This document shows, in pieces, positions 1 to 37,557 of a DNA stretch of 37,557 nt (the first letter of the stretch is position 1; each line of letters opens with the position of its first letter). The notes under the pieces are model-generated. The model was not told the DNA's origin. It saw only the letters and a list, made by a program, of their open reading frames with translations, and did no database searches. The position numbers and the translations under genes were made by a program. The stretch comes from Stramenopiles sp. TOSAG23-2 (Eukaryota), in NCBI GenBank assembly GCA_900128395.1, contig LT649324.1, positions 1 to 37,557 of the forward strand, written 5' to 3'.

Positions 1-3000
1 TTTACGTATACAGAAATTCCTTCTATTGTTAAAATGTCCCCAGCATTTGGTTCTATTATGGGTGGAACTACTTCGAGTCTTATAGTTGGTGAAGGCTTTG
101 AAAAGACCAAAAAATGTCGATATGGCGATGAAATAGTTGATGCGGCTGTATTTGGTAGCGAGGGGGATGAAGATGGCTCTGTGGAGTGCGCTTCTCCTCC
201 AGGTCATGGTAGGCAAGCTATTTCAATATCTACTGATGGAGTTATATTTAGCTCTCCGCTTCCATATGCATTTGCTGGCACCGCTTTTGTAACGGGTGTC
301 TACCCGAACAAAGCGCCTGCTACAGGTGGAACAGAAATACGGTTGAGAGGTATGAATTTTACAAACTCACGCGCATTGTCTTGTAAATTTGGAGACGTAA
401 TGGTCCATGCACAATGGCATTCGCCTCAAGAAATCCGTTGCCTGACGCCGCGCCATGTACCATCAACAGTACTTATCGAAATGTCAAATAATGGGATTGA
501 TACCACCGTTAGTGGCCATCAATTTACATTCTATGCAAATCTTGCTGTGAATCGAATTTATCCAAACAATGGGCCTGAAGCTGGTGGCACTACCGTGCGC
601 ATTTCTGGCTTAAATTTTATCCAAACATCTTCCATTATGTGTAAGTTTGGAAATGTTAAAACAAGGGTGACCGAATTCATTTCGTCCTCTGAAATCGTCT
701 GCATCACTCCGCCGTCCCCTACGGCAGGTGTTACTTGGAGTGTCCCTGTTGAGATTTCAAATAATAATTTAACATTTTCTGGAAACGGCGTGCGCTTTAC
801 ATATGATCCGCGCGCCGTTGTCCTTGCACTGACTCCCTCCTCCGGCTACGATAAAGGTGGATCTAGAGTCATGGTATATGGATCCAATTTTCAAAATTAC
901 CCCGCATTATCATGCAGCTTTGGATCTGTGCAAGTCCCAGCATATTTCCTTTCAAGGAGTGAGATTGAATGCATTAGTCCACCACATCCAGCGCGTGCAA
1001 TTTTGCTAGAAATATCATTGAACGGTTTTGATTACACATTTTCGCAACAAATATTTAACTACGTTGAACCACCCGCTGTAAAAAAGATTTGGCCACTCAG
1101 TGGCCCTGGATTTTCCGGTGGCACGTTACTAACAGTAACGGGGAATGGGTTTGTAAATTCGCAGCATTTACTATGTCGATTTGGGCAGATTATCATGCCA
1201 GCGGCGTATTTAAGTGATACTACGCTGACTTGCCGGAGTCCGCCGGGACAACCGGGCCTGGTTTCGTTTGAAGTGTCGACCAATGCAATTGATTTTTCAA
1301 CTGATGGAAAGCGGTTTCTGTATTATCGTGATGTCGCTGTATCATTTGTCCGGCCTACAAGAAGTTTAACAACTGGGCAGATCCCTGTGTTTTTCCGTGG
1401 CACAAATTTCATGAATTCATCTTCCCTTGGTTGTAGGTTTGGGGAAAATAAAGTGCGCGCTGTATTCGTTTCGCCATCATTATTGGTATGTGTAGCTCCA
1501 GCACGTGAAATTGGTTCTCACAACGTTTCCTCCATCGTGACGGCCGAGGTGACGAACAATGGGCTGGATTATTCTGGTAGCAACACTAAGTTTCAGTATA
1601 GGCAATTTTGCCCACCAAGTAAATATTGCCCGCATTTACAAATATTAATGGCGCCAAATGGGACAGCTACTGGTACTGGTAAGGGTCAGTTCAACTTCAC
1701 TCTGTGCAAACCTGGTGAATTTCAACCGAGGCGCTCGCAAAGTAGATGTCTGAAATGCCCTGTGGGATTTGTATGCCCTGACTTCGGGATGTCCAAACCC
1801 GACCTATGCCCGGCTGGATTCGTCTGTCAAGCGTTGGGGCTACGTGAGCCAAAGATTCGCTGCCCGGCAGGGCATTATTGTATGGCAGGTACGAAAACGG
1901 ACGATCCCGCCGACTTCGCGGGCCTGCGCGCCCACAGTAAATGGTCTTCGACTACCACCGATAATGCGCGATTGAATGGATATCGGGGGAGTGAGAATTA
2001 TGCGTGGTTACGTGAACCCGAAACGGGTTTAGTAAATTTCAATAAAAGCACACGTGCGTGGTTATATCTTCCTAGGCCTCCACCAGCTACCGGTGAATCA
2101 AGGCCAGAGCATGAGCCTATGATGTTAACCGGTGGTCTCTCGCGTACCACCGGTCATGAATATGGGCCTATCAATATATTGCAATATCGGCATTATAGGA
2201 AAGTGAGGCATGATCGCTCGTTGGTGTATCCGACAACCCCCGAAAGCTTGGCCAGCAGAGGTTTGTTGCCGGACAATGAAACGCTTCTTGCAGAAATGCC
2301 ATTTCCATGTCCCATCGGTACATACTGTCGCACTGGAGCAACACATAATGATACTGTACAAAGGAATTTCTCCAGACCACAAAAATGTCTAGACGGTTTC
2401 TTTTGTCCGTTTGGATCCAATTCACCAGAAGGCAGTGGGCCGTGCCCAACTGGTTTCTATTGCCCAAGACGTACGGAGAAAAACGGACCTTTGCAAAAAC
2501 AACAGGTAACACTGTACGAAGCTATAGTTTGCCCGGAAGGTATGTATTGCCCTGGTGTTGGTAACACGGGCCCAATTGACTGCTATCCGGGGACGTACAA
2601 CCCCTTTAAAGGGCAATCAAATTGTACAACTTGTCCATCTGGCCATATCTGTCCTGGTTGGAAAAGGACGCAGCCATTGATTTGCCCCGCGGGTTTTGTA
2701 TGCATGTCTGAGGGCTTATCTGCTCCTGTTGTCCAATGCCCGGCAGGTTACTTTTGTCGTGCTGGTACGTTTACAATGCAACAGAACGAGACGTATGGAT
2801 GGCAAGACAACAATGAAGCCACTGGTATATGGAAGGTGGTGAATTCGTATGATATCGAAATGCAACGCCAAGCATTGTTATTGAAATTAAAATCATCGGC
2901 ATACAATGGCTATTCGTCGACATATGAATATGTAGCTACAGCGACACTCCAGCCACTTGCATGTGCCCCTGGCACTTTCTGCTTCGGCGGGGTTGCACAC

Positions 3001-6000
3001 CCAACAACGATTGATTGGATACCGTCCAAACCTGAGGGTGCAACAGCCCCACAAACATGTACTGAAGGCGCATATTGTAAAAAGGGTACTCCTACTGCCG
3101 CTGGTACAGGCCCTTGTTTTCCTGGTCATTACTGCCCTCCCGGTTCGAGTCACCCAACCCAGGCGCCAGTTGGTAATTTTGCAAATCGTAAAGGCAGTGT
3201 GGTACCATCTTTATGTTTCCCTGGAACATGGGCGCCATTGAATGCAACGATTGACTGCAGAACATGCCCAGCAGGGCACACTTGCCAAAGTTACGGGACG
3301 TATGTCCCTATGATTTGCGATCGGGGGACGTATCGATCACTTGCAGATTCTGTTACGTGCAGATTTTGTCCGGAAGGTACGTGGAGTCCAGATTTTGGTT
3401 TGCAAGATATATCAATGTGCGAGCCTTGTCCGGCGGGGCGTATGTGTGGTCTAGAAGGTATTTACGACCTTGCTATGAGTAAAGAGTGCCCTGATGGTCA
3501 TGTATGTGGGGAAGGGACTAATAAAGCTACGCAATTTCTCCATCCTTGTCCAGCTGGGTACTGGTGTGATCCGGAGCAACCACCTTCAATGCAATACGCG
3601 GGAACATGCTTGAAAGGGGCGTATTGTCGTCGTGGCACAAAAGGCTACTTGAAAGGATATTTTAAGTGCCCTACGGGGTATTACTGTCCGCAAGGTACAG
3701 CCTCTGCATTGCCGCGAGAAACCCGTTGCCCTTACCAAACAGTATCGGCAGTTGGTGCCAGTCAGGTTATTCAATGCGAGATAGACCAGGTGGATGTCTG
3801 TGATAAATTGGCTGGACGTTCGTATTTATCTTCATTTGCGTACACATCGCTTGCAACTGGTGCAATAAGAACATTTTCCTCGATCAGGACAACGGGGGAT
3901 CAGACCGGTGAGGTTGAGATTTCCCGTAAGATCTTACCAGTAAATTTGACGGCCTCATCTGAAAGATGGAACAACGATACGGTGGACATATTCCGCTCTT
4001 GCCCATTCAATGTTTCGGTTGCTGGGGGGGAATATATTACCGTTATCGGACGAAATTTTCAAGATGTTTACACGCTTAGGTGTTTGTTTCGTCCAATAGC
4101 TGATGTTTTAGATCCTTTGACCATAGCTACTTTTGATCAAAGCTTAGCAGCGTACGAATCTAGAACACGCTTACGTTGTCGTACGCCACTGTTCTATGGG
4201 AACGAATCGTGGGCAGTTCACGTTTCAAATAATGGTGTTACCTTTTCAGATACGTTTGCAGAAATTTTACCGGTCAATGTAACGTCCGAGTTAGCACATT
4301 TAAATACAACCGATCCAGAGTCGTCATGGTTAAATGAAAAGGATCAAAAGGCTGTGTTTAAAAGGCGCACGTACATTGACGAATGCTTGTGTGTAGAAGG
4401 GAAATACTTGGGTGCTGCGCAATTGCTTAAACAGCCCGGTGAAAGTGAAGAAGATTTTATCGCCCGAAAGCAAGTAAGCAACAACTATTTATACCAATGC
4501 AAATTACTAGTAGAAGAGCAAGAAGCTGTTCGTGTATATGAATTGGATTGGTTCAGATTGCCGGTACTAAATTTGGCTGAAATTTCGTTTAATTTTGGGC
4601 ACTTGCCAACTGAAATGAAATATGGCGATCATTATACGATTGCAATTTATGTTTCGCCATCGGTGTGCGAAGAACAGCGATGTGTTGGAGGTGGTTCTCG
4701 TGATCGCGTTGTCAGCCTCGATGTAGTGGACAGGGAATATGGAGTGGTGGATAAGTCTACAAAGACACCTTGGTGGTGGAAAACAGGACCTGAAGCAGAT
4801 GGGTTTGATGATGATATGATTACAAATGTATTAGATGCATTTCCTTGCACGCAGCCAGTTCCTATGCCTGATTCGTTCTTATCCACCGATGTGGATAAAC
4901 ATGGCGTAAATAAATTTCAAATGTTTGCGTTGGAGGATGTTATCTTCAAAGTAGAAGTTCACATCATTCACGCATTGTTTATGTCCGCTACACACTTTCT
5001 AAAAAATATGAGTGTGGTGGAGTTGTTTGCACCAGATCGGGCAAATCGCACCGAAGGCATTGAAGCGGCGCAAGTTCAAATGCGCAAAGTAGAAAAGTCT
5101 ATTTCATGGGCTAGAGAGCGTGTCCCAATGCAATTTGTGTTTTTGGCATATTATTCAAAGGAGGATCATCAAGCTAATGTTGCCGCGCCAATGAATTTGC
5201 CGCCAAGATATCGGGAATACGAGCGTGGTCGTGTTTTGGTAGGATTTATGAGAGAAACTGGATCTGAAATTGCACCTGTTGTGCTTGATTCACTAATTGA
5301 TATACCTGAAGTACTTGTTGATGGTAAATTTGTGCGTAAGCAAAAGGGTGTGAAACCAGGTGTGGGTTGGTGGGATCCACCAGCAAGTCTGCTTGAGGTC
5401 GGGCATGCAATGAAGAGGAAATATCGAGAAACGTTTCACAATTTTCAACTTGCTGATCAAAGTCTATTTTTTACGTTTGATAAAATGTTTTTGCCATATA
5501 TGCCGTACTTGTCAAATTGCGATGGATTTGATTCATATGTTCCCATTTGGCGCCTGTTTGAGCATCCAGATTGTGAGCTTCCAGAAGTTCCAGACCCAAC
5601 AGTAGCTGTAGTACAAGGGTTGGGCGATACTGTTTACACGCGTGTTGACGAGCGTCGGCAAATGCCACCCTTTCCGCACCAGGATGACATTGTAGAGATG
5701 AGAGGTTTGGATGCAATTATAAAAGGAGTAGCTAATCCTACAGCAGATATTTGCGAATATGGTTTTACTTGCTATTATGAAGAGGATTTGACCCAAGTAG
5801 AAGTCAATCCGCGTTGGTATGAAGCGCCAGATGGATCAGAATTATTTAGTATTGTGCGCACTCCGATTGCAGTGACAGAGTATCTGAATCAGGCACAAGT
5901 AGATGCCCCGATGAGGTATGCTGAAGGTGATCCAGAACTTGAAGGGAAAGAAGTTAGGCGACCTGTACCAACTGATACCCTTTTCGCCTATATGAATGTT

Positions 6001-9000
6001 GAACGAGAATTACAATATCGTGGTGCCGATTTAGGCGGAGATGAGCCTGAACCTATGTATAATGTTAGGGGAGCTTATAATCATTTATTTGATGATATTA
6101 TGAACAATATACATTACCCAAAGGGTGGCGAAGATGCGTTTATTCCTATCGGCGTGAATGGTGAATCACGCGGGGAATTAACGATGGAGTGTTCCTCAAG
6201 ATGTTTTCCTAGATCTGTATCATTAGGGATAACGTATTGGCAATTCAGTAATTATCAAAAGGATCTTTTATCTGCTGAATTGGAATTGGATGAGTGGGAT
6301 AAAAATACTGAAGAAAAAGAATATGAATTTGGGTTTAGTATGGTCCCGCTAAGTTATTTAGGTTTAATTATTGCATTCGCTTTCAGTATAGATATTTTCA
6401 TTGTGTTGTTTGCGGCACTTGGGGTTTTTTCCATATTGATTTCGGCCTTATTTTATTTAAATATTAGACAATCAACACGTCTGGAAACTCCACCAAAATT
6501 CAGAATGTCAAGCTATATATCTTTAGTTATGCCGCCAGCGATATCGGGTGTTATGATCGGGTCGATTCCAATACTTTTAGTTTTATGGTTTTGGTATGTA
6601 ATTTTATATGCTGAGTTTTGGTATGGTTTTGTCGGCACTGCCAAAGCGGCAGTGCCGGAAATACCGGGAATGGGACCTAATTTTTTGTTCGATGGCTGGC
6701 CGAACCACTGGATGGAAAAAAAACTCGAGCCTGCAAATAGGGATATAGTACGGCATGGCCGTTTTGGTCTTGTACTGCTTGCAGTCGGGATGTTCTGTGT
6801 TGTTTTGAGTGCTAAAATATTTTTGCCTAAGCGTGTTTCAAAACGTGAAAAAGAGATTGAAATGAAGCGTGACAAGCAGGCGCAAAAAGAAACTGTGTGG
6901 GTTCCAACGCTGTGGAAACGCAGCAATTTCATTTTTGCATCAGTTATGATGGGTCTGTTCTCTACCATCCTCATAGAATTGTCATTTTGGTCGGACTTTG
7001 GGGATAATGTGTGGTATTTAATTTTATTATTCCGTCCTGCCGGTATTGTTCTTGATTTAGTCATTGAGGGGCAATTAGGAGAATCGTTGCTAGCGGCGCC
7101 TTTGGTAGCTACATTTTCGTTATGTACGGATATTGTTACACTGGGTTCGGATAATTTCTTGGATTTCATATTGTGTTTTATTGTTGAATTTGGCATGCTT
7201 TTATTTGAACGCTGTTTTTGGGATCCTGGTTTTGGAATGTTTTTCGAGGTTCTGACCGAAAAAATGGCTGAATTAATCGCATTTCTCAAGAAGAAAATGA
7301 AATTGAAAGGAAAGAGTAAAATTGAGGAGCAAGCGGCGCGTGAGGCAGCAGCTGCAGAACAAATGAAAAATCGTGATGCGGGAGTAGATTATAGTACTGG
7401 TGATACTGTTGAACCAATTTTAGGATCGTTTTCAGGCTATTCTGGGGATGCATTTGGTGTAGTTTATACAAGTATTTACATGATCATGTTCATATGGTTC
7501 CGAGAACCAATACAACTACCAATATTGTATGGTATCAAAATTCAGGATATGTTGTATTATTTTGCGTTTGGCGTTGTTTCTACGCCATTTCAATTTGTTT
7601 GTGATGTTTTGATTCATCAATCGTTGGAAATTTTCTGGGGTTGGAAGATTCATGATTATTTAATCTATACGCGTTATCGTTATTTACAGCGGGAAACACG
7701 TTGGAAAGGTTTAGAAGACTCCTTAGATGAATGTATCGAGGAAGGATGTCGAACACTTGACCAAATGTGCTTCTCTTCTCAATTTTATTTAATGCATACA
7801 ATTGCTACGTTTGGTCAGATGAATATTGTTTTTGCGATGGAAGTGCTTTTACGATGGAAATGGAACTTTTTCGGCGACCGTGCGTCTTTTGTTATTATTG
7901 CTGGATCATGTCTGACGTGCTTACTCATGTTCAATTTTACACAATGGGTGATTAACATGACTGGGTATTATAAATTGAAACACGAAGATACAGCATGGCA
8001 TTCTACATTAGGTGGTCCAGACGAGGAGGAGTTTGGAATTCCAAGGTGGGATGAGCTAGATAAAATTAAAGGTGCATCGCATGAGGCATATTTGATGAAT
8101 CAAAAAATTACATCGGAAACGTTTCGGTATAAGTTTTTGGATTACAATCGGCCATGGTTGGTCAGTCAATTGCCAGCTATTTTAACGCCGAGGACATTAA
8201 GGCGGAGTCGCCCTTATTTAATAGCACAACTAACGAAAATTTTAGGTTCTGTGAATCCCGATGTCTCATCAGACTCAGACTCGGATGATGATGGTAGGCC
8301 GAAATTTGGCCCTGTAGCACTTTCGACCACCTCGCGTTCGATCGCGCGTCTGTGGCTTGCACAAGCACGTCGTAGAAAACGCTTGCGGGAGGTTGTCCAA
8401 CCATTAATAAATCGCGCTCGCAGGAATGAATGCGAAAAATGTCTGAGCAGACAGCAGCTACAAGTCGAGCTTGTGATTCCGATTGAAGTTTTAGGAGATC
8501 GTTTTGAAAAGGAGCACCCAGATGATGAATTTGATCAAGTTGCTTGGAAACAATTCTTCAATAAAAATGCAAAATTTAGAACGTTATGCTTGAAGTGCAT
8601 TCAGGAAGAGCAAAGCGTTGCACGTGAGAAAGCCATGAGAGCGTTGCAAAATGCTGAAATTTCTGATTCAGACGATGATGAAATGGGTGCAAGATTTGGC
8701 CCAGTCTTTTTGAGCGCTGCTAGTAATGCTATTTTGCAAAATTGGTATAGAAAGGCATCGGATACTGTTCGAAAACGTGGTGGAAAGACTGCTGCGCAAG
8801 TATATATTAGTGATGACGATGAGGATGATGATGCGGCTGTTGGATGGGCGAAGAAGAAATTAAAATTAAGCTCAGCATCGAAAGCTATTGCAATCAAATG
8901 GTTACGAATGGCGCGAGCAAGAAACCCAAGAGTGACAAAGAAAGGTAAGCGTGAAGCCCTTAAAGCTGGGCGCACTAAACCTAGAGGTCGCTACATGGGT

Positions 9001-9042
9001 GCTGGAAAAGGCGCTCCAAGAAGTGCTATCCGACATAAATAA
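1..9042 (+). CDS. Giant multipass membrane protein (5'-partial): about 6 IPT/TIG Ig-like repeats, many GCC2/GCC3-type Cys-rich repeats, a further TIG domain, large ectodomain, about 10-11 TM helices, cytosolic tail
   Basis: Frame +1 is open from base 1 (FTYTEIPSIVK then Met at 34), so the true start is upstream. TIG repeats of the form 'P..GP..GGT.V.I.G.NF......C.FG.....A......I.C.TP......V..EIS.NG' at about 1-1600; 'CP.G.YC..G' repeats at about 1610-3810; hydrophobic helices at about 6350-7980; stop TAA at 9040-9042. Confidence 0.85.
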   Translation, partial: FTYTEIPSIVKMSPAFGSIMGGTTSSLIVGEGFEKTKKCRYGDEIVDAAVFGSEGDEDGSVECASPPGHGRQAISISTDGVIFSSPLPYAFAGTAFVTGVYPNKAPATGGTEIRLRGMNFTNSRALSCKFGDVMVHAQWHSPQEIRCLTPRHVPSTVLIEMSNNGIDTTVSGHQFTFYANLAVNRIYPNNGPEAGGTTVRISGLNFIQTSSIMCKFGNVKTRVTEFISSSEIVCITPPSPTAGVTWSVPVEISNNNLTFSGNGVRFTYDPRAVVLALTPSSGYDKGGSRVMVYGSNFQNYPALSCSFGSVQVPAYFLSRSEIECISPPHPARAILLEISLNGFDYTFSQQIFNYVEPPAVKKIWPLSGPGFSGGTLLTVTGNGFVNSQHLLCRFGQIIMPAAYLSDTTLTCRSPPGQPGLVSFEVSTNAIDFSTDGKRFLYYRDVAVSFVRPTRSLTTGQIPVFFRGTNFMNSSSLGCRFGENKVRAVFVSPSLLVCVAPAREIGSHNVSSIVTAEVTNNGLDYSGSNTKFQYRQFCPPSKYCPHLQILMAPNGTATGTGKGQFNFTLCKPGEFQPRRSQSRCLKCPVGFVCPDFGMSKPDLCPAGFVCQALGLREPKIRCPAGHYCMAGTKTDDPADFAGLRAHSKWSSTTTDNARLNGYRGSENYAWLREPETGLVNFNKSTRAWLYLPRPPPATGESRPEHEPMMLTGGLSRTTGHEYGPINILQYRHYRKVRHDRSLVYPTTPESLASRGLLPDNETLLAEMPFPCPIGTYCRTGATHNDTVQRNFSRPQKCLDGFFCPFGSNSPEGSGPCPTGFYCPRRTEKNGPLQKQQVTLYEAIVCPEGMYCPGVGNTGPIDCYPGTYNPFKGQSNCTTCPSGHICPGWKRTQPLICPAGFVCMSEGLSAPVVQCPAGYFCRAGTFTMQQNETYGWQDNNEATGIWKVVNSYDIEMQRQALLLKLKSSAYNGYSSTYEYVATATLQPLACAPGTFCFGGVAHPTTIDWIPSKPEGATAPQTCTEGAYCKKGTPTAAGTGPCFPGHYCPPGSSHPTQAPVGNFANRKGSVVPSLCFPGTWAPLNATIDCRTCPAGHTCQSYGTYVPMICDRGTYRSLADSVTCRFCPEGTWSPDFGLQDISMCEPCPAGRMCGLEGIYDLAMSKECPDGHVCGEGTNKATQFLHPCPAGYWCDPEQPPSMQYAGTCLKGAYCRRGTKGYLKGYFKCPTGYYCPQGTASALPRETRCPYQTVSAVGASQVIQCEIDQVDVCDKLAGRSYLSSFAYTSLATGAIRTFSSIRTTGDQTGEVEISRKILPVNLTASSERWNNDTVDIFRSCPFNVSVAGGEYITVIGRNFQDVYTLRCLFRPIADVLDPLTIATFDQSLAAYESRTRLRCRTPLFYGNESWAVHVSNNGVTFSDTFAEILPVNVTSELAHLNTTDPESSWLNEKDQKAVFKRRTYIDECLCVEGKYLGAAQLLKQPGESEEDFIARKQVSNNYLYQCKLLVEEQEAVRVYELDWFRLPVLNLAEISFNFGHLPTEMKYGDHYTIAIYVSPSVCEEQRCVGGGSRDRVVSLDVVDREYGVVDKSTKTPWWWKTGPEADGFDDDMITNVLDAFPCTQPVPMPDSFLSTDVDKHGVNKFQMFALEDVIFKVEVHIIHALFMSATHFLKNMSVVELFAPDRANRTEGIEAAQVQMRKVEKSISWARERVPMQFVFLAYYSKEDHQANVAAPMNLPPRYREYERGRVLVGFMRETGSEIAPVVLDSLIDIPEVLVDGKFVRKQKGVKPGVGWWDPPASLLEVGHAMKRKYRETFHNFQLADQSLFFTFDKMFLPYMPYLSNCDGFDSYVPIWRLFEHPDCELPEVPDPTVAVVQGLGDTVYTRVDERRQMPPFPHQDDIVEMRGLDAIIKGVANPTADICEYGFTCYYEEDLTQVEVNPRWYEAPDGSELFSIVRTPIAVTEYLNQAQVDAPMRYAEGDPELEGKEVRRPVPTDTLFAYMNVERELQYRGADLGGDEPEPMYNVRGAYNHLFDDIMNNIHYPKGGEDAFIPIGVNGESRGELTMECSSRCFPRSVSLGITYWQFSNYQKDLLSAELELDEWDKNTEEKEYEFGFSMVPLSYLGLIIAFAFSIDIFIVLFAALGVFSILISALFYLNIRQSTRLETPPKFRMSSYISLVMPPAISGVMIGSIPILLVLWFWYVILYAEFWYGFVGTAKAAVPEIPGMGPNFLFDGWPNHWMEKKLEPANRDIVRHGRFGLVLLAVGMFCVVLSAKIFLPKRVSKREKEIEMKRDKQAQKETVWVPTLWKRSNFIFASVMMGLFSTILIELSFWSDFGDNVWYLILLFRPAGIVLDLVIEGQLGESLLAAPLVATFSLCTDIVTLGSDNFLDFILCFIVEFGMLLFERCFWDPGFGMFFEVLTEKMAELIAFLKKKMKLKGKSKIEEQAAREAAAAEQMKNRDAGVDYSTGDTVEPILGSFSGYSGDAFGVVYTSIYMIMFIWFREPIQLPILYGIKIQDMLYYFAFGVVSTPFQFVCDVLIHQSLEIFWGWKIHDYLIYTRYRYLQRETRWKGLEDSLDECIEEGCRTLDQMCFSSQFYLMHTIATFGQMNIVFAMEVLLRWKWNFFGDRASFVIIAGSCLTCLLMFNFTQWVINMTGYYKLKHEDTAWHSTLGGPDEEEFGIPRWDELDKIKGASHEAYLMNQKITSETFRYKFLDYNRPWLVSQLPAILTPRTLRRSRPYLIAQLTKILGSVNPDVSSDSDSDDDGRPKFGPVALSTTSRSIARLWLAQARRRKRLREVVQPLINRARRNECEKCLSRQQLQVELVIPIEVLGDRFEKEHPDDEFDQVAWKQFFNKNAKFRTLCLKCIQEEQSVAREKAMRALQNAEISDSDDDEMGARFGPVFLSAASNAILQNWYRKASDTVRKRGGKTAAQVYISDDDEDDDAAVGWAKKKLKLSSASKAIAIKWLRMARARNPRVTKKGKREALKAGRTKPRGRYMGAGKGAPRSAIRHK

Positions 9043-34350: not shown

Positions 34351-34731
34351 AACTACGGTGGTAAGTATTACAATATTAATACGTGATATATTAATAAATA
34401 AATAAAGGCCAGCTGGTGTGCCTACCTATAATACTCTGGACACCAGAGATTTTCCTTGCCAGTACCCTGACAAGGAAAACTAGTGCCTACCAGCCTTTAC
34501 CAGCCAAATAATAATACATACAATCATAGTATAATACTATAATAATAGTAAGTAATAAGAATAAAACAAAAAAAATAATAATAATGAATAAACGCTTTTA
34601 GACTATAATATTACTTTATATTAAATACATGTGATGAGATAGGTATATATTTTACTAAAATTTTCACAATAAGCAACTTCAGTCATATAAGCATATATAT
34701 ATATGATAGTAGTAATAATAACAGCAACAAA

Positions 34732-35643
34732 ATGTCATTAAAACAAATTTCAGAGTTATTGGAACGTGTAGAGCGTGTGGAGGAAAAGTATGAACCACAG
34801 ACACAAAATGTTATTGAAGATTCTTGGGCTAGTCGTCGTTCAAAAGTATTTGCTGCATTACAAGGTGTTACAAAAGAGATGGATTTACTAGACGAAGCTA
34901 TGCAAAAACATGATAGCTTTCAAATACCGCAAATTAAACATAAAATTAGAAAAGCTCATCAGATTATACGTGAAGTAATTAAACGTATGAGAATGGTATA
35001 TGAGAAAACAGCGAAAAAAGCAAGTCGAAAAAGAGGTGCTAAAAAGCAAGAAGTAGAGAAGGAAGTAGCAAGTATGAAAAGCGATTTAACAGAAATTAAT
35101 TTAGAAGTTGAAAGAAGCATTAATGAATTTCATAAAAAGTTAGGTTTAGGTGGTGATGACAAAAGTGATTTAGAGATGGCTGGTATAAATAGTATGAATA
35201 TAGAATTAACAAATTTGATGGGCGGCTCAGAGGACGACAATAATAATGATAATCCTTTTATGTCAGATAAAAAATCAGGAGGTGGACAAAATGATAATAC
35301 AGGTATAAATAATCTTGGTGCGTATGAAGAACAAGTATTAGAACAAGTCGATAAAGAGCAACAGGAACTTGATAATCAATTAGATATGTTAGAGTCTTTA
35401 ATGCCTCAGATAAAAGAAATGGCAAATGTGATAGGTGAACAATTAGATGTGACAAATGCATTGGCAAAGGACGTTACTAAAAAGGTCCAAAAGGCTGATG
35501 ACAAATTAACAAATGTAGGTAAACAAATGGATGAATTTCAAAAAGAAGCAAAAGCGGCCAATCATTTATGTTACATCATTGGTTTTATAATTTTATTAGG
35601 TCTTGCTGGGGTTATTTATAATTTAATGCGTGGTACAGATTGA
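34732..35643 (+). CDS. Tail-anchored SNARE, Qc/SYP7-like syntaxin
   Basis: N-terminal helical bundle, acidic linker, SNARE heptads 'QQELDNQLDMLESLMPQIKEMANVIGEQLDVTNALAKDVTKKVQKADDKLTNVGKQM', C-terminal TM 'LCYIIGFIILLGLAGVIYNLM'. Confidence 0.85.
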   Translation: MSLKQISELLERVERVEEKYEPQTQNVIEDSWASRRSKVFAALQGVTKEMDLLDEAMQKHDSFQIPQIKHKIRKAHQIIREVIKRMRMVYEKTAKKASRKRGAKKQEVEKEVASMKSDLTEINLEVERSINEFHKKLGLGGDDKSDLEMAGINSMNIELTNLMGGSEDDNNNDNPFMSDKKSGGGQNDNTGINNLGAYEEQVLEQVDKEQQELDNQLDMLESLMPQIKEMANVIGEQLDVTNALAKDVTKKVQKADDKLTNVGKQMDEFQKEAKAANHLCYIIGFIILLGLAGVIYNLMRGTD

Positions 35644-36141
35644 GATTGTATATTATATATATATTATATGAAGTACGACATATCGAGTCGGCCACGCAGA
35701 TTTATATATATATTATATATATAAAATAATAGTAGTAGAGAGTTAAAGTAGTTTTAAAATTAAAAATACAATAACAACATAATACCTGGTAATATCAAAA
35801 CCAGATATTTTTTCACATTATGATAGTACATTTTTGGTAGTATACCAGGTATATTCTTCTGTATAGAAAGAGTCTGACGACGCAGACTATTCTTCTGTGT
35901 AGTGTATCCTGCCATACAGTATACCTTAACCTATTACTATACCAAAATAAAAAATATGGAGAAATTATTAAAAAAAATACTAAAATATAGTAGGAAATAA
36001 TATTAATATGCATTTAAATATATAACCATGTACTGTTGGACAGACAAGATAGTATATATTGTATATCAAAATTGTGGAACGAGGTAAGTGTACATATTTT
36101 GAATTATAGTCACATCCTTCCTTATCTATATATAAAGCAAG

Positions 36142-36624
36142 ATGACAACAAAATTAACAGTTGATGAAGTTATAAAAGAATTAAAACTGGAAAAAAAAGA
36201 AAATCATAATATCGATACAATTATTAAAGAAATAAGAAAAGAGTATACTTCAAGTGATACAGTAGTTGATTTATTAAAGTATTGGACAAAGCAATACGAG
36301 ACGTCATCAGTTCACAATTTAGAAATAGACATTATATCTGATGATAACCGTTATTTTAAAATGATTAAGCCTGAGGATATGGCATTTACCCGGAATTGTT
36401 GCTTATCACTGAAAGAAGTTGATTATATAAAAAGTTTATTAGTTGCATTGACAGTGGGTACAGTTTTATTTTGTATCAATTATTTAAATTTAGTTATTAT
36501 GGGGAAAATGGATACGGAAAAATGGGTCAAAATGTCTGTCACGTATTGTGTTCCTTTTTGTACAGCTACCTATGGTCAAATGATTCCAATTTTGAAAAAG
36601 CCCAAAAAGCAATATAATATATGA
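36142..36624 (+). CDS. Small membrane protein with C-terminal NrtS-like (bacterial small nitrate/nitrite transporter) domain
   Basis: 160 aa; last ~60 aa 'KSLLVALTVGTVLFCINY...KWVKMSVTYCVPFCTATYG' match the NrtS pattern as I recall it (ALxVGTxLxxIN ... TYxVP[YF]xVxxYG, two TM helices). Not verified by HMM. Confidence 0.75.
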   Translation: MTTKLTVDEVIKELKLEKKENHNIDTIIKEIRKEYTSSDTVVDLLKYWTKQYETSSVHNLEIDIISDDNRYFKMIKPEDMAFTRNCCLSLKEVDYIKSLLVALTVGTVLFCINYLNLVIMGKMDTEKWVKMSVTYCVPFCTATYGQMIPILKKPKKQYNI

Positions 36625-36862
36625 GCTATGTGTGTGTGCTGTGTTTGTATGTGTTTTTATGTAATTGTCTGTCTTTACTTCGAATAATTTAAATTTAAAA
36701 TATTAAATACATGTAGGAGTAGGAATTATCATGAGTAAATTGAAAAAAAAATCTTATTTATTATATATGTGCGTAAATTAAATTATATTAAATATGATGA
36801 TTGATTTTCTTCACACATCATCAGGTTTATTATGGATTTCCAGGACTTCTCTTTCTCTTTTT

Positions 36863-37555
36863 TCACTTCTTCTTTGTATTACGCGTGCTATAATTACTCC
36901 TCAATTCTTCAGCACGTTTTAATTGCAATTCATGCAATCGATCTTCATTTAATTTTATAGTATTTTCAACATTAAACAATTGTGCACGACCATCACTGCT
37001 TTTTTTTTCCAATGATTGCAATTTACGTTCAACAATACGTTGATAGGTCCTTTGTTTTGATTTAACACGATTTTCTGCATTATTACTAAAATGCTGTTGC
37101 AGCATTGCAGCATCTTCATCTTGTTTTGTTTTCTGTTGTTTGCTCTGGCTCAAACGGCGACGCTTGCGTTCTTCCAATCGTTTTGCTAATTTTTCATGTT
37201 GTGCTTGTCGCTTTACTTCCAATTGTTGAGCTGCTTGTTCTTGGTACAATTCCATACGTTGTTGCGATAGCTTGATACGTTCCAATTCTAATCGTTTCAA
37301 CTCTTCATCTTGAAATTTTGCCGTATCGATTAATTTATCATAATCTGTATATGATGTTGCAGCACGTTTTAATTCATCTTTAAAGGATGGTATTTGGGAA
37401 TTATTGCTATTATTGTTTGCATCGTTTAAAAACCCGTTTTTGCCAAGTTTTGTTAAAAAACCTTCATTCATTATTCCACCATTATTATTGTTGTTGTTGT
37501 TGTTGTTGTTGTTGTTATTATTATTATTATTATTATCACTATCATCATCATTATC
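36863..37555 (-). CDS. Coiled-coil protein of unknown function, C-terminal part (5'-partial)
   Basis: Frame remains open upstream of the Met at 37471 to the window edge (DNDDDSD, poly-N, GGI, MNEG); K/R/E/Q-rich helical sequence; stop TGA at 36863-36865. Confidence 0.7.
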   Translation of the reverse strand, partial: DNDDDSDNNNNNNNNNNNNNNNNNNGGIMNEGFLTKLGKNGFLNDANNNSNNSQIPSFKDELKRAATSYTDYDKLIDTAKFQDEELKRLELERIKLSQQRMELYQEQAAQQLEVKRQAQHEKLAKRLEERKRRRLSQSKQQKTKQDEDAAMLQQHFSNNAENRVKSKQRTYQRIVERKLQSLEKKSSDGRAQLFNVENTIKLNEDRLHELQLKRAEELRSNYSTRNTKKK

Positions 37556-37557
37556 AA

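What the first reader, a model, noticed from the sequence alone, without database searches (positions are those of the whole stretch)
36142..36624. Bacterial NrtS-type mini nitrate-transporter domain in a eukaryotic nuclear gene
Seen: the C-terminal ~60 aa carry two TM helices with ALTVGTVLFCIN and TYCVPFCTATYG, preceded by a ~90 aa soluble helical extension; the gene is intronless, has host-like AT content and sits between clearly eukaryotic genes (next to a SNARE). Established: NrtS is a family of very small two-helix membrane proteins described as a nitrate/nitrite transporter in cyanobacteria and found in other bacteria; characterised eukaryotic nitrate/nitrite uptake uses NRT1/NPF, NRT2, NAR1/FNT and CLC. 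Inference: this could be a horizontally acquired, ameliorated NrtS giving a protist an undescribed anion transport or sensing route. No nitrate-assimilation genes are in the window, so the substrate may differ.
Basis: partly seen in the sequence, partly recalled or inferred. Interest (0 to 1): 0.75.

Follow-up and report, generated by a model that had tools for sequence, protein, structure and literature searches.

The report
Bacterial-type NrtS gene in marine protist
A marine single-celled eukaryote carries a conserved gene whose membrane part belongs to a tiny bacterial nitrate/nitrite transporter family, fused to a new soluble head, so it was most likely acquired from bacteria, though its actual cargo is untested.

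Summary
ORF 36142-36624 (+) encodes 160 aa. Residues 99-148 match NCBIfam NF038050 (NrtS) at 58 bits (cutoff 25, E 6e-16) and keep the family's invariant residues. The model shows a confident two-helix hairpin behind a roughly 95-aa helical extension that has no relatives outside the protein's own cluster.

The gene is eukaryotic in context. Its neighbours are eukaryote-type genes, and its GC3 and codon usage match theirs. Three independent metagenome contigs are colinear through the gene and its flanks. In those variants the ORF has no indels while the spacers have many. Poly-A metatranscriptome contigs from two studies match the ORF exactly.

In domain trees the protein pairs with one unnamed low-GC-type sequence, and the pair sits beside the cyanobacterial NrtS clade with moderate support (92/85). 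No broad eukaryotic family was found. A Trichoplax protein belongs to a different subfamily.

Horizontal acquisition of an NrtS-type hairpin is therefore well supported. Nitrate/nitrite transport is inferred from family membership only. Actinobacterial relatives sit next to MerA-like and metal-related genes, so the family's substrate range is uncertain. The host lineage is unknown. I rate this a new variant of a known kind, of moderate interest.

The parts
36142..36624 (+). Complete ORF, 160 aa plus stop: NrtS-domain membrane protein with an N-terminal extension
   Evidence: ORF; NrtS 58 bits, cutoff 25; conserved, indel-free in three independent contigs; exact poly-A RNA contigs over 36198-36520
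36142..36306 (+). aa 1-55: lineage-specific three-helix soluble unit, predicted cytosolic
   Evidence: H7-17, H23-34, H38-55, pLDDT 72-80; only own-cluster fragments P0001-P0005 match it; no Pfam family above cutoff; charge distribution
36307..36369 (+). aa 56-76: low-confidence or disordered linker
   Evidence: pLDDT <50 for aa 56-73; the substitutions in variant L083 and in P0001 cluster here
36370..36399 (+). aa 77-86: short helix before the membrane hairpin, ending at the vicinal cysteines C86-C87
   Evidence: H77-86; Cys positions 86, 87, 111, 136, 140
36415..36501 (+). aa 92-120: helix 1 of the hairpin, with conserved A102, V105, G106, L109, I112 and N113
   Evidence: pLDDT 93-97; invariant and nearly invariant columns
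36436..36585 (+). aa 99-148: stretch matched by the NrtS profile NF038050
   Evidence: (78.9 bits against my own domain HMM, and the only such domain in all six frames of the window)
36514..36597 (+). aa 125-152: helix 2 of the hairpin, with conserved T134, Y135, V137, P138 and the clade motif G145-Q146
   Evidence: (G145 and Q146 invariant in the window/P0094/cyanobacterial alignment)
36592..36621 (+). aa 151-160: lysine-rich C-terminal tail (net +4), which predicts that both termini are cytosolic
35644..36141 (.). Upstream spacer (GC 0.26), fast-evolving: presumed promoter and 5' UTR
   Evidence: GC; 6-9% mismatches and 18-19 indel events against 0 in the ORF
36625..36862 (.). Downstream spacer (GC 0.25), fast-evolving: presumed 3' UTR
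34732..35643 (+). Upstream neighbour: tail-anchored coiled-coil protein, probably a Qc/syntaxin-like SNARE (context only)
   Evidence: no Pfam SNARE hit; Atlas 0.92-0.95, SNARE clusters, all Eukaryota; L081 starts inside its 3' end
36863..37555 (-). Downstream neighbour: coiled-coil ORF with a poly-N tract and no known family (context only)
   Evidence: (colinear in L081-L083)

Best explanation
This is a real, constrained and probably expressed nuclear gene of an AT-rich marine protist. Its C-terminal 55-60 residues are a true but divergent member of the bacterial NrtS family, a two-helix membrane hairpin. That module was most likely acquired by horizontal transfer from bacteria. Its nearest resolved neighbour is the cyanobacterial NrtS clade, and its composition has since fully converged on the host's. 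In the eukaryote it gained a roughly 95-aa N-terminal extension (a three-helix unit, a flexible linker and a short helix) that has no detectable relatives.

Inferred mechanism: the hairpin inserts with both termini in the cytosol. Several copies pack through the conserved small-residue face of helix 1 (A102, V105/G106, L109) and through helix 2. The conserved polar residues N113, T134 and Y135, which lie a similar distance from the connecting loop in the two helices, then line a pathway for nitrate, nitrite or a similar small anion. The cytosolic extension would add regulation, targeting or partner binding.

Shown here: the gene, its family membership, its eukaryotic linkage, its constraint, and the presence of its sequence in poly-A RNA libraries. 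Inferred: the transfer and its donor, oligomerisation, the substrate, the topology, and the role of the extension.
For: Family membership:
- NF038050 scores 58 bits against a cutoff of 25.
- Both invariant positions and 8 of 9 nearly invariant positions of a 109-sequence alignment are kept.
- The domain is 49% identical over 59 aa (E 1e-19) to the NrtS of Picosynechococcus sp. PCC 7003, with an identical 13-residue run.
- The hairpin is modelled at pLDDT 92-97.

Eukaryotic gene:
- Neighbours are a CTL choline transporter, TTL, a mitochondrial carrier, MTHFR with MTHFR_C, a RING protein, a TIG giant protein and a SNARE-like protein.
- GC3 is 0.242 and RSCU r is 0.73, both within the neighbours' range.
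- Contigs L081, L082 and L083 are colinear with window 35543, 35633 and 36264 respectively, through to 37557.
- In DNA run X6, the contig on the gene has depth 4.28, against 3.1-5.3 for contigs on the neighbours.
- No relative is found on viral contigs.

Constraint:
- The ORF has 0 indels and 0.4-2.8% mismatches in three variants. The spacers have 5-19 indel events and 2-9% mismatches. The neighbouring CDS has 0.6-1.6% mismatches.
- The protein's own cluster has 53 members, and all 15 listed are 160 aa.

RNA: poly-A metatranscriptome contigs from two studies match 36198-36494 and 36279-36520 with 0 differences.

Transfer:
- 286 relatives were found, and those with organism names are bacterial apart from one Trichoplax entry.
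- In the careful tree (77 of 234 rows), window + P0094 form a pair at 99/89, and together with 14 cyanobacterial-type rows they form one side of a branch at 92/85.
- The AU test rejects placing the pair with the actinobacterial INQLD type (p 0.016).

Oligomer: 9 of 144 relatives are natural tandem fusions of two hairpins, and the Synechococcus locus L012 has two adjacent NrtS genes.

Topology: the C-tail carries a net +4 charge.
Against: - No transport assay exists for this protein. The only functional study of the family that I know of (Maeda et al. 2019, cyanobacterial NrtS1/NrtS2) was not readable here, so its content is recalled.
- At 58 bits the window protein scores about half of the canonical 107 bits, so it is divergent.
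- The tree rests on 52 columns, the key branch (92/85) is not starred, and the quick and careful trees differ in detail. I defined the AU-test group after seeing the tree.
- In the 80 mostly actinobacterial loci, the recurring neighbours are MerA-like oxidoreductases (14 of 80), ECF sigma factors (11), PpoB2 (8), DUF1326 (8) and DUF3179 (6). None of the 15 largest neighbour clusters that I printed and looked at is a nitrate-assimilation gene. The canonical Synechococcus pair is not next to nitrate genes either. The family label may therefore overstate substrate specificity.
- No nitrate-assimilation gene lies in the window, and the host genome could not be searched.
- RNA libraries can contain DNA, and the runs were chosen because they hold this gene, so expression is not proven.
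- DNA run X3 covers the ORF far less than its flanks, and one weak joint skips the gene.
- Only one NrtS gene is seen here, whereas the cyanobacterial system is a pair.
Confidence: 0.55

Rival explanations
1. The gene and its origin are as above, but it does not move nitrate or nitrite. The NrtS-type hairpin would be a generic small membrane module. Here it could conduct another small ion, take part in metal or thiol handling through its cysteines (C86-C87, C111, C136, C140), or simply anchor or sense for the cytosolic N-terminal domain.
For: - Actinobacterial relatives lie directly beside, and on the same strand as, MerA-like flavoprotein disulfide reductases (within 100 bp in L014, L068 and L073) and PpoB2/DUF1326 pairs.
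- One relative (P0143, 589 aa) carries the hairpin in front of an adenylate/guanylate cyclase domain (203 bits), which is a sensor or anchor use.
- A subgroup that includes the Trichoplax protein has Cys-rich N-terminal extensions.
- No nitrate genes lie near the gene here or in L012.
- The window protein scores only 58 bits against 107 for the canonical proteins.
Against: - The window protein groups beside the cyanobacterial clade whose named members are all annotated as NrtS, not with the metal-linked actinobacterial type.
- The MerA-like neighbours score below NCBIfam's MerA cutoff (292-370 bits against 454), so even the metal link is soft.
- The family cysteine at position 140 is common but is not among the columns conserved at 90% or more.
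- No Mer-type or other transporter family matches the protein at E<=1.
Confidence: 0.3
2. The gene is an ancient eukaryotic or plastid-derived (endosymbiotic transfer) gene that was inherited vertically and lost or overlooked elsewhere, rather than a lineage-specific horizontal acquisition.
For: - Composition is fully host-like, so the gene is not recent.
- It has a divergent sister, P0094, with low-GC-type composition, 40% identical over 65 aa, that could come from another eukaryote.
- A position beside the cyanobacteria would also fit plastid ancestry if the host is an alga.
- Eukaryotes are thinly sampled in the searched collections, and very small proteins are often not annotated.
Against: - HMMER over 1.84 billion representatives found no other protein sharing the N-terminal extension.
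- It found no eukaryote-named relative of this subfamily.
- The Trichoplax protein pairs with Dehalococcoidia-type sequences at 69% identity (99/82), which points to a separate origin or a contaminant.
- The source of P0094 is unknown.
Confidence: 0.1
3. The feature is an artefact: a bacterial contaminant read-through, a chimeric assembly join, or a chance ORF.
For: - The source run is very small.
- None of the Logan contig pieces listed bridges the ORF to a neighbouring gene.
- Run X3 shows little cover over the ORF.
Against: - Three independent metagenome contigs of 3.1-3.4 kb carry the gene in the same context.
- The ORF is indel-free and as conserved as the neighbouring CDS, while the spacers decay.
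- Codon usage is host-like.
- Exact poly-A RNA contigs exist in two studies.
- The profile E-value is 6e-16.
Confidence: 0.03

Closest known systems
Cyanobacterial NrtS1/NrtS2 nitrate/nitrite transporter (NCBIfam NF038050; Maeda, Aoba, Nishino & Omata 2019, Plant Cell Physiol 60:2180, PMID 31198965). I saw the citation only in reference lists; the paper's content is recalled, not read.
   Same: Same profile family, above the cutoff. Same two-helix hairpin of about 56 residues. Same conserved residues. 49% identity to the Picosynechococcus sp. PCC 7003 protein. Nearest clade in the tree.
   Different: The host is a eukaryote. The protein is 160 aa, against 74-107 aa for most named cyanobacterial hits. 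It has a 95-aa N-terminal extension that has no homologues. One gene is seen here, rather than an adjacent pair as in L012. It scores 58 bits against 107. Several clade-typical residues differ: INY instead of INHG, T141 instead of V, and Y144 instead of H.
Actinobacterial and other soil-bacterial NrtS-like proteins, including tandem two-hairpin forms (P0007-P0011; loci L001-L080)
   Same: The same domain. These give the best single pairwise identities, up to 56-58% over about 50 aa. Many also carry N-terminal extensions.
   Different: They have the INQLD-type motif and lack the GKM loop and the G-Q end motif. The AU test rejects grouping them with the window protein (p 0.016). Their gene context is MerA-like, PpoB2, DUF1326 and ECF sigma. 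Their extensions are Pro/Arg-rich and unrelated to the window's.
Characterised eukaryotic nitrate/nitrite carriers: NRT2/NNP (MFS), NPF/NRT1, NAR1/FNT and CLC (from established knowledge, not tested here)
   Same: Possibly the same substrate class.
   Different: They are unrelated in sequence and fold. Those carriers are polytopic proteins with 6-12 or more helices, whereas this is a two-helix hairpin that must oligomerise. No Pfam family of those types matches the protein.
Trichoplax sp. H2 hypothetical protein TrispH2_006948 (RDD41268.1; P0050, 136 aa)
   Same: It is the only other NrtS-domain protein I found under a eukaryote's name. It also has low-GC-type composition and an N-terminal extension.
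   Different: It belongs to a different subfamily. It pairs with the Dehalococcoidia locus L063 at 99/82, and its best identity, 69% over 52 columns, is to P0086. It shares their Cys-rich N-terminal architecture, which is not the window's. I did not test whether it is truly placozoan or comes from an associated bacterium.

Membership tests
NrtS (NCBIfam NF038050, nitrate/nitrite transporter NrtS) | Profile match at or above the curated cutoff of 25 bits | tested here: met
   58.0 bits, E 6.2e-16, aa 99-148, model positions 3-52 of 56. The canonical Synechococcus pair scores 106.6 and 106.8 bits.
NrtS (NCBIfam NF038050, nitrate/nitrite transporter NrtS) | Two transmembrane helices forming a hairpin of about 56 residues | tested here: met
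   AlphaFold2 helices 92-120 and 125-152 at pLDDT 92-97. Both segments are free of charged residues.
NrtS (NCBIfam NF038050, nitrate/nitrite transporter NrtS) | Family-conserved residues (G in helix 1, I-N, T-Y, V-P-F) | tested here: met
   G106 and P138 are invariant. A102, V105, L109, I112, N113, T134, Y135 and V137 are conserved at >=90% and kept here. Only position 141 differs, T where the family has V (109 sequences).
NrtS (NCBIfam NF038050, nitrate/nitrite transporter NrtS) | Small protein with at most a short N-terminal extension | tested here: inconclusive
   The window protein has about 95 aa before the domain. The median over 144 relatives is 21.5 aa and only one is longer, at 129 aa. 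Extensions vary across the family, so this is an extreme of the range, not an exclusion.
NrtS (NCBIfam NF038050, nitrate/nitrite transporter NrtS) | Two paralogous subunits encoded side by side (NrtS1/NrtS2, as recalled for cyanobacteria and as seen in L012) | tested here: inconclusive
   Only one NrtS domain occurs in all six frames of the 37.6-kb window. The rest of the genome is not held. P0094 could be a second subunit or an orthologue, but its source is unknown.
NrtS (NCBIfam NF038050, nitrate/nitrite transporter NrtS) | Placement inside or beside the characterised (cyanobacterial) clade in a family tree | tested here: met
   Window + P0094 together with 14 cyanobacterial-type rows form one side of a branch at 92/85. 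The cyanobacterial rows alone form a clade at 99/96, so the window protein is sister to that clade, not nested in it. The tree uses 52 columns and 77 of 234 rows.
NrtS (NCBIfam NF038050, nitrate/nitrite transporter NrtS) | Nitrate/nitrite transport activity | not testable with these tools
   This needs complementation or uptake assays.
Small mercury transporters (MerT/MerF/MerE type), considered because of MerA-like neighbours in bacterial relatives | Profile match to a Mer transporter family | tested here: not met
   No such family appears among the Pfam or NCBIfam matches of the window protein at E<=1. HMMER's filters drop most matches above about 0.1. The neighbours themselves score below the MerA equivalog cutoff.
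Any family with a solved structure | Sequence or fold match to a PDB entry | tested here: inconclusive
   phmmer against PDB gave 0 hits at E<=10. Foldseek gave none at E<=1e-3. VIA-align wide gave a best Z of 6.3, generic helical hairpins below the tool's stated noise level for helical models.

The most novel reading that the evidence does not exclude
A marine protist has domesticated a cyanobacterial-type NrtS hairpin by fusing it to a newly evolved cytosolic three-helix domain. The result would be a eukaryote-specific, regulated mini-channel for nitrate or nitrite that works as a homo-oligomer. With P0094 it would mark a small, so far unrecognised eukaryotic branch of the family, a fifth and structurally minimal route for inorganic nitrogen anions in eukaryotes beside NRT2, NPF, NAR1/FNT and CLC. 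The weak joint that skips the gene in one metagenome would then reflect presence/absence variation of an adaptive accessory gene in natural populations.
Probability: 0.25. Interest if true: 0.65.

Novelty: new variant of a known kind. Interest (0 to 1): 0.45.

Why it matters
NrtS is one of the smallest transporter families proposed, and I found it named only in bacteria. None of the six literature searches I ran on the family turned up a eukaryotic NrtS in the held library.

A conserved, host-adapted copy in a widespread marine protist shows that even a 56-residue membrane module can cross domains, be kept, and acquire a new soluble domain. If it carries nitrate or nitrite, it adds an unrecognised uptake or efflux route to marine eukaryote nitrogen budgets, and a marker that current annotation pipelines for eukaryotes would miss.

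The bacterial side of the analysis also matters. A large actinobacterial branch that the NrtS profile recovers sits beside MerA-like and metal-related genes, not nitrate genes. The family-wide functional label therefore deserves experimental scrutiny.

Tried and rejected
- **Word-index searches:** searches with the whole protein and with aa 92-160 found only the protein's own cluster.
- **Pfam:** only sub-threshold chance hits (Put_Phosphatase, DUF4898), and no NrtS model matched.
- **Rfam:** no RNA family in the window.
- **Own genome:** not held.
- **Atlas on the protein:** best scores 0.81-0.82 (bacterial NrtS-like clusters), below the 0.9 that the tool treats as more than a lead.
- **Complex prediction:** two copies of aa 88-160 returned 'no answer' (score 0.01, my alignment was not used, partner fold uncertain). 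This says nothing either way about oligomerisation.
- **Fold searches:** Foldseek against PDB gave no match at E<=1e-3. VIA-align wide gave only generic hairpins with Z<=6.3. PDB by sequence gave nothing.
- **The search for related loci with the 109-sequence alignment:** failed for lack of a conserved stretch. I repeated it with 15 closer sequences. That biases the 80 loci toward the actinobacterial type.
- **Viral origin:** no relative on viral contigs. Spacers of 0.1-1.4 kb and the gene content fit a eukaryote.
- **dN/dS among population variants:** 2-10 substitutions per comparison gave values of 0.24-1.39, which cannot be read. I used the contrast in indels and mismatches between ORF and spacers instead.
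- **Quick-tree placement:** the placement inside the cyanobacterial set was not upheld by the careful tree, which puts the window protein beside that set.
- **MerA call:** my first reading of the bacterial neighbours as MerA was softened to 'MerA-like', because they fall below the equivalog cutoff.
- **Cover in run X3:** the low cover of the ORF may be a filter or sampling effect, since only about 55% of the run was read.
- **Small word shares in six RNA runs:** these were not used as evidence, except for the two runs I laid.
- **Literature:** the 2019 NrtS paper is not held. The citing papers I opened give only the reference, or use it for 'Nrt' in general. Searches for NrtS-like terms returned plant 'NRTs' only.
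- **Supplements:** I did not request any.
- **Host lineage:** I could not determine it with the tools left.
Full report
**1. The observation**

The window holds an uninterrupted ATG-initiated ORF at 36142-36624 on the + strand, encoding 160 aa. An AlphaFold2 model built on a 109-sequence alignment has mean pLDDT 77.8 and shows these parts:
- three short helices (7-17, 23-34, 38-55; pLDDT 72-80);
- a low-confidence stretch (56-73);
- a short helix (77-86);
- a very confident helical hairpin (92-120 and 125-152; pLDDT 92-97).

Both hairpin segments are free of charged residues, and the C-terminal tail LKKPKKQYNI carries a net +4 charge. By the positive-inside rule (established knowledge) both termini, and so the N-terminal extension, should face the cytosol.

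**2. Is it an NrtS domain?**

Pfam has no matching family, only sub-threshold chance hits. NCBIfam NF038050, 'nitrate/nitrite transporter NrtS', matches aa 99-148 at 58.0 bits against a curated cutoff of 25, E 6.2e-16, over model positions 3-52 of 56.

An exhaustive HMMER search of 1.84 billion representative proteins found 286 hits at E<=1e-3. Every hit outside the protein's own cluster falls on aa ~72-160, the hairpin region. The first 95 residues are matched only by near-identical fragments of the same protein (P0001-P0005).

In a 109-sequence alignment, G106 and P138 are invariant. A102, V105, L109, I112, N113, T134, Y135 and V137 are conserved in at least 90% of sequences, and all are present here. 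Only position 141 deviates, with T where the family has V.

The protein is 49% identical over 59 aa (E 1e-19) to the protein that NCBI and UniRef hold for Picosynechococcus sp. PCC 7003, which UniRef names NrtS. The two share an identical run, VALTVGTVLFCIN.

A canonical Synechococcus locus (L012) carries two adjacent NrtS genes of 85 and 90 aa. Each scores about 107 bits over the whole model. The window protein is therefore a true but divergent member.

**3. Is it a eukaryotic gene and not an artefact?**

*Context.* The other ORFs of the window encode the following:
- a 3002-aa TIG-domain protein;
- a CTL-type choline transporter;
- an EF-hand protein;
- a tubulin-tyrosine-ligase family protein;
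- a BMT5-like methyltransferase;
- a mitochondrial carrier;
- a RING/DUF1232 protein;
- MTHFR with the eukaryote-type regulatory domain.

The immediate upstream neighbour is a tail-anchored coiled-coil protein. Pfam does not call it a SNARE. The Atlas places it with syntaxin-like SNARE clusters at 0.92-0.95, all Eukaryota.

*Composition.* The gene's GC is 0.28 and its GC3 is 0.242, inside the neighbours' GC3 range of 0.21-0.36. Its codon-usage correlation with the other genes is 0.73, against 0.67-0.87 for the other short genes.

*Occurrence.* The stretch is found in marine and seawater metagenomes: 20 of the 24 listed runs hold part of it, from 15 studies.

*Linkage.* None of the Logan contig pieces listed bridges the ORF to a neighbouring gene, which left linkage open. 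Three independent contigs carry the gene at 99, 98 and 94% protein identity: L081 (3356 nt), L082 (3236 nt) and L083 (3106 nt). They are colinear with window 35543-37557, 35633-37557 and 36264-37557 respectively. L081 therefore runs from inside the 3' end of the SNARE-like gene, through the NrtS gene, and across the downstream gene.

*Depth.* In DNA run X6, the contig on the gene has depth 4.28. The contigs on the neighbouring genes have depths of 3.1-5.3.

*Viral origin.* No relative is encoded on viral contigs.

**4. Constraint and expression**

| Region | Mismatches | Indel events |
|---|---|---|
| NrtS ORF | 0.4%, 0.8%, 2.8% | 0 in all three contigs |
| Upstream spacer | 6-9% | 18-19 |
| Downstream spacer | 2-4% | 5-7 |
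| Neighbouring coding sequence | 0.6-1.6% | 1 per contig |

These figures compare the window with L081-L083. The ORF evolves like the adjacent protein-coding gene and unlike the spacers. With only 2-10 substitutions per comparison, dN/dS (0.24-1.39) cannot be read.

The protein's 90% cluster has 53 members, and all 15 that were listed are exactly 160 aa.

Poly-A-selected metatranscriptome contigs from two separate studies match the ORF with no difference and no gap: X16 over 36198-36348 and 36344-36494, and X17 over 36279-36520. This fits expression and the absence of an intron in that part. It is not proof, because RNA libraries can hold DNA and the runs were chosen for holding this gene.

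**5. Where does the domain come from?**

*Named relatives.* Those found in prokaryote genomes are mostly Acidimicrobiia and other Actinomycetota, with some Dormiibacterota, Chloroflexota, Acidobacteriota and Cyanobacteriota. In that scan 205 of 268 candidate stretches were confirmed and 80 were kept. The search patterns came from actinobacterial-type sequences, so the ranking is biased.

*Quick tree.* A quick tree of 234 domain rows placed the window protein inside a 16-row set with all four cyanobacterial rows, at SH-aLRT 95.

*Careful tree.* A careful tree used 77 of those 234 rows: the 16, plus 54 drawn at random, plus 7 that I added by choice. Five long-branch rows were excluded (P0091, P0068, both domains of P0037, and P0089). 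It refines the picture as follows:
- the window protein pairs with P0094 (99/89);
- the 14 cyanobacterial-type rows form their own clade (99/96);
- the 16 together form one side of a branch at 92/85, which is not starred.

*AU test.* The test rejects uniting the pair with the 34 INQLD/INHLD-type rows (p 0.016). The caveat is that I named that group after seeing the tree.

*Shared motifs.* The window protein shares the loop motif GKM and the terminal G-Q with the cyanobacterial clade.

*Clade profile search.* A profile of this clade found 571 proteins. Among the 120 listed, all 23 rows that carry an organism name are cyanobacteria.

*P0094.* It is a 116-aa protein of low-GC-type composition from a 911-nt contig of unknown origin. 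It is 40% identical to the window protein over 65 aa. It may be an orthologue in a related protist or a paralogue.

*Other eukaryotes.* Of the 20 relative clusters whose sources I looked up, one bears a eukaryote's name: Trichoplax sp. H2, RDD41268.1. That protein pairs with the Dehalococcoidia locus L063 at 99/82, and its best identity, 69% over 52 columns, is to P0086. It shares the Cys-rich N-terminus of those sequences, so it has a separate origin or is a contaminant.

*Conclusion.* The pattern is patchy. One protist population, perhaps one more unnamed sequence, and hundreds of bacterial lineages carry the domain. This favours horizontal acquisition, with a donor related to the cyanobacterial NrtS lineage. 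The host-like composition shows the transfer is not recent. The tree has only 52 columns, so I hold the donor assignment at moderate confidence.

**6. How it most likely works**

*What is known about the family.* From my own recollection, NrtS1 and NrtS2 of a marine Synechococcus restore nitrate and nitrite uptake to a transport-null cyanobacterium and appear to act together. The paper (Maeda et al. 2019) is not held in the library. I saw only its citation, in two reference lists.

*Oligomerisation.* A two-helix hairpin cannot form a pathway alone. Two observations argue that hairpins pack against each other: 9 of 144 relatives are natural tandem fusions of two hairpins, and L012 has paired genes.

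*Packing face and polar residues.* The conserved positions in helix 1 (102, 105/106, 109, 112/113) fall on one face with small residues, which is typical of tight helix packing. The conserved polar residues N113, T134 and Y135 lie a similar distance from the connecting loop in the two helices. This last point is my inference from the helix boundaries of the model, which gives no coordinates.

*Proposal.* I therefore propose a homo-oligomer (or a hetero-oligomer with a P0094-like partner) that forms a small-anion pathway. The cytosolic N-terminal unit would provide regulation, targeting or partner binding. I put nitrate/nitrite as the substrate at about 40-45%.

**7. Evidence against the nitrate reading**

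- **Bacterial neighbours.** In the 80 bacterial loci, none of the 15 largest neighbour clusters that I printed and looked at is a nitrate-assimilation gene. The recurring neighbours are below.

| Neighbour | Loci (of 80) |
|---|---|
| MerA-like disulfide oxidoreductase (one with an HMA domain) | 14 |
| ECF sigma factor | 11 |
| PpoB2 | 8 |
| DUF1326 | 8 |
| DUF3179 | 6 |

- **Tight linkage.** In L014, L068 and L073 the MerA-like gene ends within 100 bp upstream, on the same strand. In six loci a PpoB2 or DUF1326 gene lies within 100 bp (or overlaps the match) on the same strand.
- **Softness of the MerA call.** The MerA-like proteins score 292-370 bits against the equivalog cutoff of 454, so 'MerA-like' is as far as I can go.
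- **Signalling fusion.** One relative, P0143, places the hairpin in front of an adenylate/guanylate cyclase domain at 203 bits.
- **Canonical locus.** The Synechococcus pair lies among phosphoribulokinase, GlcD, an epimerase and CsaB genes, not nitrate genes.
- **Cysteines.** The window protein has five (86, 87, 111, 136, 140), including a vicinal pair just before helix 1.
- **Window and host.** No nitrate-assimilation gene is in the window, and the host genome could not be searched.

These points keep alive a rival in which the module handles another ion, or serves as a membrane anchor or sensor.

**8. Comparison with what is known, and novelty**

The protein passes the family's profile, fold and conserved-residue tests and sits beside the characterised clade. 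It differs in three ways:
- its host domain is Eukaryota;
- it carries the second-longest N-terminal extension among 145 proteins compared;
- it appears, so far, as a single gene rather than a pair.

It is unrelated to the polytopic eukaryotic nitrate carriers NRT2, NPF, NAR1/FNT and CLC (established knowledge; none matches). No solved structure resembles it beyond generic hairpins. None of the six literature searches on the family turned up a eukaryotic NrtS in the held library. Subscription journals are largely missing from that library.

I rate it a new variant of a known kind.

**9. Verdict**

The gene is real, conserved, host-adapted, probably transcribed, and of bacterial ancestry. Its function is inferred, not shown.

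Interest is moderate (0.45). Gene transfer into protists is common. What is notable is a 56-residue transporter module crossing domains and gaining a new domain, in an organism widespread in the sea, and the hypothesis is directly testable.

Three things remain open:
- the host lineage;
- the oligomer prediction, which gave no verdict;
- run X3, where cover over the ORF is low and one weak joint (35671 to 36717, 22 letters on the shorter side) may hint at presence/absence variation, or may be a repeat artefact.

Noticed in passing
L001-L080 (bacterial loci), e.g. L014:2427-3926, L068:849-2213, L073:1375-2577, L018:3228-3935, L038:3328-3951: Actinobacterial-type NrtS-like genes repeatedly sit beside MerA-like flavoprotein disulfide reductases (14 of 80 loci; below the MerA cutoff) and beside PpoB2/DUF1326 pairs (8 of 80 each), often abutting on the same strand. 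No nitrate-assimilation genes are nearby. The family-wide 'nitrate/nitrite transporter' name may not fit this branch.
   Followed up: partly
P0143 (589 aa, metagenome protein): An NrtS-type hairpin at the N-terminus is fused to repeated segments with weak PAS similarity and to an adenylate/guanylate cyclase catalytic domain (203 bits). Here the module is used as a membrane anchor or sensor.
   Followed up: partly
P0050 = Trichoplax sp. H2 RDD41268.1 (136 aa, on a 333,560-nt contig): This is an NrtS-domain protein under an animal's name. Its best domain identity is 69% (to P0086), and it pairs with the Dehalococcoidia locus L063 in the tree. It shares their Cys-rich N-terminus. It is either a second, independent transfer into a eukaryote or sequence from an associated bacterium.
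   Followed up: partly
window 34432-34480 and 36717-36747: These short spacer stretches reach depths of 2,458 and 10,374 in metagenome run X3, against about 20 for their flanks. They also appear in RNA contigs. The first contains two hairpin-forming inverted repeats. They may be a dispersed short element or a motif shared with abundant organisms, and contigs break at them.
   Followed up: partly
window 35671-36717: In DNA run X3 the ORF bins have depth 0-2.2 while the flanks have 14-24. One contig joins 35671 to 36717, skipping 1045 nt that include the whole gene, but with only 22 letters on the shorter side and at 90% likeness. This may be presence/absence variation or a repeat artefact.
   Followed up: no
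window 1-9042: The 3002-aa TIG/IPT-domain ORF has GC 0.44 (windows up to 0.49), against 0.28-0.38 for every other ORF in the window. Its codon usage still correlates with theirs (r 0.83).
   Followed up: no
window 36086-36111: A GTAAGT...TATAG stretch of 26 nt lies 31 nt upstream of the start codon. It could be a very short 5'-UTR intron or chance, and no RNA contig covers it.
   Followed up: no
P0043, P0053, P0086, P0147, P0148, P0050: A subgroup of NrtS-domain proteins has an N-terminal extension with four or more Cys/His residues in a zinc-ribbon-like spacing. Pfam names no family for the three I tested.
   Followed up: partly
window 37480-37540 (- strand ORF 36863-37555): The downstream neighbour begins with a long poly-asparagine tract encoded by a TTG/TTA trinucleotide run on the + strand. 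It is a coiled-coil protein with no known family.
   Followed up: no
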